Source of the DNA: Escherichia coli
Lineage (GTDB): Bacteria; Pseudomonadota; Gammaproteobacteria; Enterobacterales; Enterobacteriaceae
Length of the DNA: 37,672 bases
Strand: one strand, 5' to 3'
NCBI RefSeq assembly: GCF_051903065.1
Contig: NZ_CP178442.1
The notes beneath the pieces are model-generated. The model searched no databases and was not told the origin of the DNA. It worked only from the letters and a program-made list of their open reading frames with translations. This document shows, one piece after another, positions 10,923-11,014 of this stretch; position 1 is the stretch's first letter; each line of letters opens with the position of its first letter. The position numbers and the translations under genes were made by a program.

Positions 10923-11014
10923 AGAGCCTGCGGCAGGCACAGGCAAAAACATCGTTTTTGGACAATCATGGATAAAATGTTAACATTTTGACCATGATTG
11001 TCTATCCTGCATTG
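10923..11014 (+). promoter_or_regulatory. 92-bp element, inverted copy of 19398..19489; candidate origin of transfer with RP4-like nic motif TATCCTGC (11003-11010, top strand)
   Basis: Reverse complement of 10923-11014 is identical to 19398-19489; contains internal palindrome gacaatcatgg-N20-ccatgattgtc centred on aaaatgttaacatttt; ATCCTG|C resembles the MOBP nic consensus. Confidence 0.5.

What the first reader, a model, noticed from the sequence alone, without database searches (positions are those of the whole stretch)
10923..11014. Perfect 92-bp inverted repeats 8.4 kb apart, each with a nested palindrome and RP4-like nic motif: candidate dual oriT
10923-11014 is the exact reverse complement of 19398-19489. 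Each copy holds a nested palindrome (gacaatcatgg...ccatgattgtc centred on aaaatgttaacatttt) and the motif TATCCTG|C, which resembles the nic core of MOBP relaxases. The second copy sits 13 bp upstream of the taxA-taxC relaxosome genes. R6K-type plasmids have been reported to carry two functional oriTs in inverted orientation flanking the replication region, which fits this geometry. Perfect identity over 92 bp also makes the enclosed 8.4-kb segment (pir, ori, TA loci, the 420-bp repeats) potentially invertible by recombination.
Basis: partly seen in the sequence, partly recalled or inferred. Interest (0 to 1): 0.75.

Follow-up and report, generated by a model that had tools for sequence, protein, structure and literature searches.

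The report
Two inverted transfer origins, IncX4 plasmid
The two perfect 92-bp inverted repeats are the IncX4 version of a feature already known from plasmid R6K and its relatives: two copies of the conjugative origin of transfer, facing each other across the replication region, so it is real and functional-looking but not new.

Summary
Window 10923-11014 is the exact reverse complement of 19398-19489 (95 nt with one mismatch). Each arm holds a 42-nt palindrome that abuts TATCCTG|CATTG. One arm ends 13 nt before taxA-taxC.

The window is an IncX4 plasmid of the pSD11 type. The arms are homologous to the two oriT-bearing long inverted repeats of R6K, and the same layout is present in IncX1, X2 and X3: ddp3 <- oriT ... 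pir/ori ... oriT -> taxA-taxC. The literature already calls two oriTs in long inverted repeats a hallmark of conjugative IncX plasmids.

Evidence for function found here:
- The nic-proximal hairpin covaries across lineages (9 of 10 pairs changed on both sides).
- A natural IncX3-X4 hybrid has its crossover inside TATCCTGCAT.
- Hundreds of tiny plasmids with no relaxase gene carry only this core.

The suggested invertibility is not supported. The inverted junction occurs in 0 plasmid records, and the native junction in 442.

One finding is less expected. IncX4 has three palindrome variants. Both arms of a plasmid always carry the same one, and the variant changes together with the TaxA N-terminus.

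Verdict: already known in kind, low to moderate interest.

The parts
10920..11014 (+). Arm 1: pir-proximal oriT copy. The strand predicted to be nicked is the + strand.
   Evidence: Inverted repeat I1. Aligns with the R6K repeats that carry oriT.
19398..19492 (-). Arm 2: taxA-proximal oriT copy. The strand predicted to be nicked is the - strand.
   Evidence: The IncX3-X4 hybrid pCQ02-121 has its crossover inside this arm's nic core.
11003..11014 (+). Nic core TATCCTG|CATTG. Predicted nick between 11009 and 11010. The repeat ends 5 nt after the nick.
   Evidence: CTATCCTGCAT is identical in IncX1, X2, X3, X4, X5 and Proteus oriTs; Campylobacter keeps CTATCCTGCA.
19398..19409 (-). Nic core of arm 2. 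Predicted nick between 19403 and 19402 on the - strand.
10961..11002 (.). 42-nt palindrome of arm 1. Its 3' arm abuts the nic core. The inner ~28 nt are hypervariable between IncX4 sub-lineages.
   Evidence: hairpin; covariation; isolated island of divergence.
19410..19451 (.). 42-nt palindrome of arm 2.
10926..10938 (.). Distal box GCCTGCGGCAGGC, itself a small palindrome. Its counterpart in arm 2 is 19474-19486. It is conserved, with one substitution (GCCAGCGGCAGGC), in the ~1.55-kb plasmid examined (pJJ1887-1, L006); the counterpart in R6K is ACCGACTGTAGGTC.
10977..11004 (-). Promoter-like site (TAGACA, 16 nt, TG-n-TAACAT) inside the palindrome, reading outward to the ddp3-like gene. The mirror site 19408-19435 (+) reads into taxA.
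   Evidence: This is a consensus match only (9 of 12).
10378..10905 (-). 175-aa DUF2726 protein reading outward from arm 1. Distant relative of DDP3, the gene found at this position in R6K, IncX1 and IncX3.
   Evidence: DDP3 model, E = 9e-7, 29 bits, below the 140-bit cut-off. (RefSeq name). (ddp3 at the same place in X2, X3, X1). BLASTP against R6K DDP3 finds nothing.
19503..20006 (+). taxA (DDP1), the relaxosome accessory protein.
   Evidence: 235 bits, cut-off 150..
20010..21239 (+). taxC, a MobP1-family relaxase. The alignment shows the motif HDDKEDHPHVHV.
   Evidence: 404 bits. (35% identity to R6K TaxC).
11511..12518 (-). pir-type replication initiator. With the 22-bp iterons at 12602-12969 it forms the replication core enclosed by the two oriTs.

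Best explanation
Each arm is a complete origin of conjugative transfer of the R6K/IncX (TaxC, MobP1) type.

Proposed mechanism:
- TaxA and TaxC, possibly helped by the DDP3-like protein, assemble on the distal box and the 42-nt palindrome.
- TaxC cuts the strand that reads 5'-TATCCTG|CATTG-3'. That is the + strand at 11009/11010 in arm 1 and the - strand at 19403/19402 in arm 2. TaxC stays bound to the 5' end.
- The strand is exported 5'->3' through TaxB and the VirB-like type IV secretion system.
- Both nic sites sit at the inner edge of their arm and face inward. Whichever origin fires, the 8.4-kb replication/maintenance segment enters the recipient first and the hairpin side enters last. 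The hairpin, with its 3' arm touching the nic core, can then re-form for the closing reaction.
- Arm 1 sends the + strand and arm 2 the - strand. The other origin is crossed as its complement and is not a substrate, so a full-length plasmid is delivered either way.
- The arms also carry outward-facing promoter-like sites for taxA-taxC and the ddp3-like gene, so relaxosome binding probably regulates both.

Shown here: homology to the R6K oriT repeats, conserved geometry, hairpin covariation, a natural crossover at the nic core, and presence of the core on plasmids without a relaxase gene.

Inferred: the exact nick position, activity of both copies in IncX4, which protein binds which element, and autoregulation.
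For: 1. The arms align with the R6K repeats 22703-22813 and 28050-28159. They share CTATCCTGCAT, the upstream box and the CCCAAC leader before taxA.
2. IncX1 (pMAS2027), X2 (R6K), X3 (pNDM-Z214) and four further IncX4-backbone plasmids, one of them the X3-X4 hybrid, all have two inverted copies. One lies upstream of taxA/ddp1 and the other upstream of ddp3 or the DUF2726 gene, with pir between them.
3. TaxA and a MobP1 relaxase lie next to arm 2.
4. A 10-bp stem directly abutting TATCCTG exists in every lineage with a different sequence: X4 types 1-3, X1/X3, X2, X5, Proteus and Campylobacter. 97.3% of cells are paired, 9 of 10 pairs are changed on both sides, 0 of 500 shuffles reach this, and slid controls give 32-43%. 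Folding gives z = -4.9 to -7.5.
5. The natural hybrid pCQ02-121 has IncX3 sequence up to ...CGTTTGCCCTATCCTG and IncX4 sequence from CATTGATTGTACC. The crossover therefore lies inside the shared nic core. [quoted passage not shown]
6. Each of the three IncX4 palindrome types occurs twice per conjugative IncX4 plasmid and once on tiny Col(MG828)-type plasmids of 1.3-4.2 kb. The five examined have no relaxase gene; four encode a RepL-type (or HTH-annotated) replication protein and little else, and L007 also carries a taxA. Counts of conjugative versus non-conjugative records: 88/178, 347/261 and 14/32.
7. In every group the repeat ends only 5-12 nt past the nick. This fits an oriT, whose required sequence lies on one side of nic.
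8. Literature: PMC3402527, and PMC11915502 (which labels two oriTs in IncX3 after Avila et al. 1996).
Against: No experiment on this plasmid was available. The nick site is inferred from the motif, from homology and from one natural chimera whose crossover interval is about 10 nt wide. Microhomology recombination could in principle produce that chimera.

Nothing shows directly that the pir-side copy is used in IncX4. One paper reports that oriTfinder found no oriT in an mcr-1 IncX4 plasmid and that the plasmid did not transfer in their hands (PMC10604428).

The gene beside arm 1 matches the DDP3 model only below its cut-off and not at all by BLASTP.

For the covariation count I chose the hairpin arms by eye and removed the loops, which biases the count towards pairing.
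Confidence: 0.85

Rival explanations
1. Only the taxA-proximal copy is a working oriT. The pir-proximal copy is a duplicated promoter/operator that places the ddp3-like gene under the same relaxosome control as taxA-taxC.
For: Outward promoter-like sites lie inside the palindrome in both arms. Both arms sit 10-15 nt from a gene start.
Against: Arm 1 keeps the full nic core plus 5 nt. That part lies upstream of the putative -35 and a promoter would not need it. The same holds in X1, X2 and X3. Both R6K copies are reported to be functional (Avila et al. 1996, as cited in PMC3402527 and PMC11915502). The downstream flank in the tiny plasmids (CATTGCTCTTTTG) resembles that of arm 1 (CATTGTTCTTTAC) more than that of arm 2.
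Confidence: 0.08
2. The arms are recombination sites of an invertible segment: a switch that flips 11015-19397.
For: 92-95 nt of perfect inverted homology. A tyrosine recombinase gene lies at 7534-8358. The palindrome patch is always identical in the two arms of one plasmid, so the arms do exchange information.
Against: The inverted junction is spanned in 0 of 711 matching records, while 442 span the native one. The gene order ddp3-oriT-pir...oriT-taxA is the same in X1, X2, X3 and X4. The recombinase gives only sub-threshold Xer-type matches, as expected for a multimer resolvase.
Confidence: 0.03
3. The arms are auxiliary replication origins or initiator-looping sites, like the alpha and beta origins of R6K that lie in the same places.
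For: In R6K the relaxation-complex nick was historically mapped to a replication origin (Lovett et al. 1975, listed in PMC13250579). The proteins next to the arms were first named 'DNA distortion polypeptides' of the alpha and beta origins (annotation; their role at the origins is from my own knowledge).
Against: There is no iteron or half-iteron in or beside either arm. The only match outside the gamma-type cluster is a 3-mismatch site at 18535-18551, about 850 nt from arm 2. The tiny plasmids that carry the core replicate with RepL, not Pir. This reading does not exclude the oriT reading.
Confidence: 0.03
4. The arms are the terminal inverted repeats of a mobile element that carries the replication module.
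For: Long perfect inverted repeats bracket a discrete gene block.
Against: No transposase lies between the arms. The bases flanking the outer ends are not a direct duplication. Each arm holds a relaxase target, and the arms are conserved in position across plasmids whose enclosed segment differs (5.2 kb in R6K, 8.4 kb here).
Confidence: 0.01

Closest known systems
R6K (IncX2) oriT-alpha and oriT-beta within the long inverted repeats (Avila, Nunez and de la Cruz 1996; TaxA/TaxC relaxosome)
   Same: Two inverted copies flank pir and ori. One copy abuts taxA-taxC and the other abuts an outward-reading small gene. CTATCCTGCAT is identical, the hairpin's 3' arm touches the nic core, and the upstream box is homologous.
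   Different: The stem is GACAATC.../...GATTGTC here and GGGCAAACG/CGTTTGCCC in R6K. The arms are 95 nt and 99-100% identical here, against about 111 nt and 92-94% in R6K. The spacing is 8.4 kb against 5.2 kb. TaxC is only 35% identical, and the TaxA proteins align only over ~97 residues at 28%. The flanking gene is a 175-aa DUF2726 protein that matches DDP3 only weakly.
Long inverted repeats with two oriTs in IncX1 and IncX3 plasmids (pOLA52, R485, pLN126_33, pNDM-type)
   Same: [quoted passage not shown] Confirmed here in pMAS2027 and pNDM-Z214.
   Different: Those groups share the R6K-type stem. IncX4 has its own stem, in three variants.
RP4/R751 (IncP, MOBP) oriT
   Same: The nic core YATCCTG|Y, an inverted repeat 5' of nic on the nicked strand, a relaxase operon next to the repeat that is transferred last, and promoters inside oriT (from my own knowledge of Pansegrau and Lanka's work).
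   Different: RP4 has a single oriT and its repeat ends 8 nt from nic rather than 0-3 nt. Its relaxase TraI and accessory protein TraJ belong to a different MOBP subfamily.
oriT-only 'hitcher' plasmids (pOriT; Ares-Arroyo et al., PMC10123127)
   Same: The tiny Col(MG828) RepL plasmids that carry only the IncX4-type palindrome and nic core fit that class.
   Different: Here the hitchers fall into the same three palindrome variants as the helper plasmids, and some carry two variants (L003) or an X1/2/3-type plus an X4-type oriT (L007).

Membership tests
IncX (R6K-type) dual oriT in long inverted repeats | Two copies in inverted orientation flanking the pir/iteron replication region | tested here: met
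   Arms at 10920-11014 and 19398-19492. pir at 11511-12518 and iterons at 12602-12969 lie between them.
IncX (R6K-type) dual oriT in long inverted repeats | Sequence homology to the R6K oriT repeats | tested here: met
   Four-way alignment: CTATCCTGCAT invariant, upstream box and leader shared, 69% mean column identity including flanks.
IncX (R6K-type) dual oriT in long inverted repeats | One copy immediately upstream of taxA (ddp1) and taxC (relaxase) | tested here: met
   taxA starts 10 nt after the arm. DDP1 235 bits (above cut-off) and MobP1 404 bits.
IncX (R6K-type) dual oriT in long inverted repeats | Other copy immediately upstream of ddp3 | tested here: inconclusive
   The gene at that position (10378-10905, -) matches the DDP3 model at E = 9e-7 but only 29 bits against a 140-bit cut-off. 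BLASTP against R6K DDP3 finds nothing.
IncX (R6K-type) dual oriT in long inverted repeats | Both copies support mobilisation and are nicked in vivo | not testable with these tools
   Only indirect evidence: a natural X3-X4 chimera with its crossover in the nic core of the taxA-side copy, and oriT-only small plasmids.
MOBP-type oriT (RP4-like nic region) | Nic core YATCCTG|Y preceded by an inverted repeat on the same strand | tested here: met
   TATCCTGC lies directly after the 42-nt palindrome in both arms.
MOBP-type oriT (RP4-like nic region) | Cognate relaxase with the histidine triad (HxDx..HxH) | tested here: met
   TaxC residues 171-182, HDDKEDHPHVHV, seen in the alignment with R6K TaxC. 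MobP1 family.
Invertible DNA segment | Both orientations present among related molecules | tested here: not met
   Inverted junction 0 records, native junction 442 records.
R6K alpha/beta-type auxiliary replication origin | Iteron or half-iteron for the initiator at the site | tested here: not met
   No iteron match with up to 3 mismatches in or next to either arm.
Transposon terminal inverted repeats | Transposase between the repeats and a target-site duplication outside them | tested here: not met
   No transposase among the enclosed genes. The outer flanks are unrelated.

The most novel reading that the evidence does not exclude
Within IncX4 the inner ~28 nt of the oriT palindrome, the N-terminal ~60 residues of TaxA and, in one lineage, the 5' ~400 nt of taxC behave as an exchangeable recognition cassette. 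There are at least three variants in an otherwise near-identical backbone. Both arms of a plasmid always carry the same variant. At the pir-side arm the variant is an isolated patch bounded by identical DNA, which points to gene conversion between the arms without crossover. Separate sets of tiny oriT-only plasmids carry each variant, and some carry two. If TaxA reads the inner palindrome, these variants would be distinct mobilisation specificities inside one incompatibility group, and the second oriT copy would be kept in step by conversion.
Probability: 0.35. Interest if true: 0.5.

Novelty: already known. Interest (0 to 1): 0.25.

Why it matters
IncX4 plasmids are major carriers of mcr-1, and here of cfr, so knowing where their transfer starts is useful. 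At least one published analysis failed to find an oriT in an IncX4 plasmid with the standard tool (PMC10604428). The coordinates and core given here (distal box, 42-nt palindrome, TATCCTG|CATTG, present twice) would close that annotation gap. They also explain why hundreds of 1.3-4.2-kb plasmids, many typed 'non-mobilizable', may in fact be mobilisable by IncX4 helpers. Why IncX plasmids keep two inverted origins is still an open question, but this window adds no new kind of system.

Tried and rejected
- Inversion isomers: a synthetic inverted junction found no spanning record. Rejected as a common state.
- Iterons at the arms, to test an alpha/beta-origin reading: none found.
- Rfam scan of 9000-21500: nothing at the arms, only sub-threshold hits elsewhere.
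- Transposon-end reading: no transposase between the arms and no target duplication.
- MAFFT alignment of whole oriT cores across IncX groups (A2): it put the left stem arms one column out of register between X4 and X1-3, so it could not be used for pair counting. I replaced it with a loop-free arm alignment (A5), with the bias that this introduces.
- More distant TaxC relatives:
  - Arsenophonus paNv_CAN7 has no TATCCTG[CT]A near its relaxase gene.
  - Sodalis pSG1 has the core without an obvious hairpin.
  - Proteus pPM73-KPC_48k has a single oriT in the whole plasmid.
- The Avila et al. 1996 paper could not be read. What it shows is taken from papers that cite it.
- I did not test co-residence of the tiny plasmids with IncX4 helpers.
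- I did not cross-tabulate TaxA type against palindrome type beyond the four lineages examined.

Full report
**Observation.** The repeat is exactly as described. Arms 10920-11014 and 19398-19492 are 95 nt with one mismatch. 10923-11014 is the perfect reverse complement of 19398-19489, and 8383 nt lie between the arms. It is the only inverted repeat of 30 nt or more in the window. Read 5'->3' on the strand that carries TATCCTG, each arm contains:
- a distal box GCCTGCGGCAGGC;
- a small AAAAAC-ATC-GTTTTT palindrome;
- a 42-nt palindrome, GACAATCATGG...CCATGATTGTC;
- immediately after it, TATCCTG|CATTG, where the repeat ends.

TATCCTGC occurs only at these two places. As single-stranded DNA the arm folds into a long hairpin whose 3' arm ends 0-3 nt before TATCCTG, at -25.3 kcal/mol and z = -7.5.

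**What the window is.** It is an IncX4 conjugative plasmid typed MOBP and MPF_T. Its length equals that of pSD11 (37,672 bp), and the 10.5-kb region around the arms is 100% identical to several IncX4 records. Arm 2 lies 10 nt upstream of taxA (DDP1, 235 bits), which is followed by taxC. TaxC is a MobP1-family relaxase (404 bits), 35% identical to R6K TaxC, with the motif HDDKEDHPHVHV. Arm 1 lies 14 nt upstream of an outward-reading 175-aa DUF2726 gene. That gene matches the DDP3 model weakly: E = 9e-7, below the cut-off. Between the arms lie pir, the 22-bp iterons, two toxin-antitoxin pairs and a block of small genes.

**Comparison with R6K and other IncX plasmids.**
- R6K (NZ_LT827129) has an inverted repeat of about 111 nt at 22703-22813 and 28050-28159. 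One arm abuts ddp1/taxA and the other abuts ddp3, with pir between them, and each arm contains CCCTATCCTGCATCG.
- The window arms align with the R6K arms. CTATCCTGCAT, the CATTTT stretch, the upstream box and the CCCAAC leader are shared.
- IncX1 pMAS2027, IncX3 pNDM-Z214 and four further IncX4-backbone plasmids, one of them the X3-X4 hybrid described below, show the same two-copy geometry.
[quoted passage not shown] A 2025 study labels two oriTs in IncX3 after Avila et al. 1996 (PMC11915502).
- A more distant relative, Proteus pPM73-KPC_48k (TaxC 40% identical), has one oriT in the whole plasmid, and its ddp3 lies directly downstream of the relaxase gene. The duplication is therefore a derived IncX trait.

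**Evidence that the arms are working origins.**
1. *Covariation.* In every lineage examined a stem of about 10 bp directly abuts TATCCTG, but its sequence differs:
   - GACAATC... in IncX4;
   - GGGCAAACG in X1, X2, X3 and X5;
   - GCAAATCAG in Proteus;
   - GCCTTTTATT in a Campylobacter plasmid.

   On a loop-free alignment of the arms, 97.3% of cells pair and 9 of 10 pairs are changed on both sides. No shuffle out of 500 reaches this, and slid controls pair at 32-43%. I picked the arms by eye, which favours pairing.
2. *A natural nic-site recombinant.* In the IncX3-X4 hybrid pCQ02-121 the taxA-side oriT is IncX3 sequence up to ...GCCCTATCCTG and IncX4 sequence from CATTGATTGTACC onward. The crossover therefore lies within the ~10-nt shared core, as a relaxase-catalysed joining would give. 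Later papers describe this fusion as occurring at 'the nic site of oriT' (PMC12667250, PMC8386294).
3. *Hitcher plasmids.* The palindrome plus nic core is found on hundreds of 1.3-4.2-kb Col(MG828)-type plasmids. The five examined have no relaxase gene, and most encode a RepL-type replication protein and little else.
4. *Extent of the repeat.* In all IncX groups the repeat ends 5-12 nt after the nick. This matches the one-sided sequence requirement of an oriT.

**Mechanism.** The nicked strand is the one reading TATCCTG|C, and transfer runs 5'->3' from the nick.
- Arm 1 would send the + strand starting at 11010.
- Arm 2 would send the - strand starting at 19402.
- Either way the 8.4-kb replication/maintenance segment leads and the hairpin side trails.

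Genes inside the segment point outward towards the nearer origin: pir and its neighbour towards arm 1, and the 13884-19139 block towards arm 2. The entering strand is therefore the template strand of the genes next to the origin that fired. This orientation argument is inference. Promoter-like sites (TAGACA, 16 nt, TG-n-TAACAT) inside the palindrome read outward into taxA and the ddp3-like gene. That suggests control by the relaxosome, as in RP4, but it rests on a consensus match only.

**Invertibility.** A synthetic junction joining the left flank, the arm and the inverted inner flank is spanned by none of 711 matching records. The native junction is spanned by 442. Gene order is also constant from IncX1 to IncX4. 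The inversion idea is not supported as a common state.

**What was less expected.** IncX4 plasmids carry three versions of the inner palindrome:
- type 1, this window;
- type 2, the mcr-1 plasmids;
- type 3, pIPCEC48_3 and related plasmids.

All three preserve pairing. Both arms of a plasmid always carry the same version.

At the pir-side arm the difference is an isolated island: 14 or 18 mismatches in 10967-11006, against 0-2 per 40 nt in the flanks. At the taxA-side arm the divergence continues into taxA codons ~15-59. There are 41 mismatches in 19517-19676, and 16 of the 17 amino-acid differences from type 2 fall in that region. For type 3 it continues into the first ~400 nt of taxC. The rest of taxC is identical.

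This looks like a recognition cassette kept in step between the arms by gene conversion, yet no crossover product is seen. Each version also has its own set of tiny oriT-only plasmids. L003 carries two versions, and L007 carries an X1/2/3-type and an X4-type oriT. Whether the versions differ in specificity is untested.

**Verdict.** One practical point remains: the IncX4 form is diverged enough that a standard oriT finder missed it in at least one published analysis (PMC10604428).

Noticed in passing
window 3604-6426: cfr, the 23S rRNA A2503 methyltransferase conferring resistance to phenicols, linezolid and others, lies at 4843-5901 (-). It is bracketed by perfect 458-bp direct repeats (3604-4061 and 5969-6426), each overlapping a 240-aa ORF. 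This looks like an IS-flanked resistance module and matches the pSD11-type IncX4 plasmid.
   Followed up: partly
window 14999-15418 and 17079-17498: Perfect 420-bp direct repeats lie 2080 nt apart inside the segment between the two oriTs. Each covers the start of a 119-aa ORF with no NCBIfam match. Some related plasmids appear to lack one unit (two-piece matches).
   Followed up: partly
window 18535-18551 (-): A lone iteron-like sequence (CCCATAAATCCATCCCC, 3 mismatches to the 17-nt iteron core) sits at the start of hicA, about 850 nt from arm 2. About 0.07 matches per window are expected by chance. It recalls the single iteron of the R6K alpha origin, but I did not test it.
   Followed up: no
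window 21249-21323: Sub-threshold Rfam matches to SymR (42.7 bits, - strand) and to the R1162-like antisense RNA (35.6 bits, + strand) lie immediately after the taxC stop codon.
   Followed up: no
L003 (NZ_CP148470, 4237 bp) and L007 (NZ_CP062216, 2255 bp): These small RepL plasmids carry two oriTs of different kinds. L003 has IncX4 type-1 and type-2 cores. L007 has an X1/2/3-type core and an X4-type core, plus its own taxA (62% identical to the window's). They look like hitchers equipped for more than one helper.
   Followed up: partly
L017 (pCQ02-121, NZ_KU647721): This IncX3-X4 hybrid keeps an intact IncX4-type oriT on its pir side, although its relaxosome genes are of IncX3 type. Its two origins therefore differ in type.
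   Followed up: partly
L016 pos. ~90-165 and L011 (Proteus pPM73-KPC_48k): This IncX-like plasmid has a single oriT, and its ddp3 lies directly downstream of the relaxase gene. It may represent the state before the oriT-ddp3 duplication and inversion seen in IncX1-X4.
   Followed up: partly
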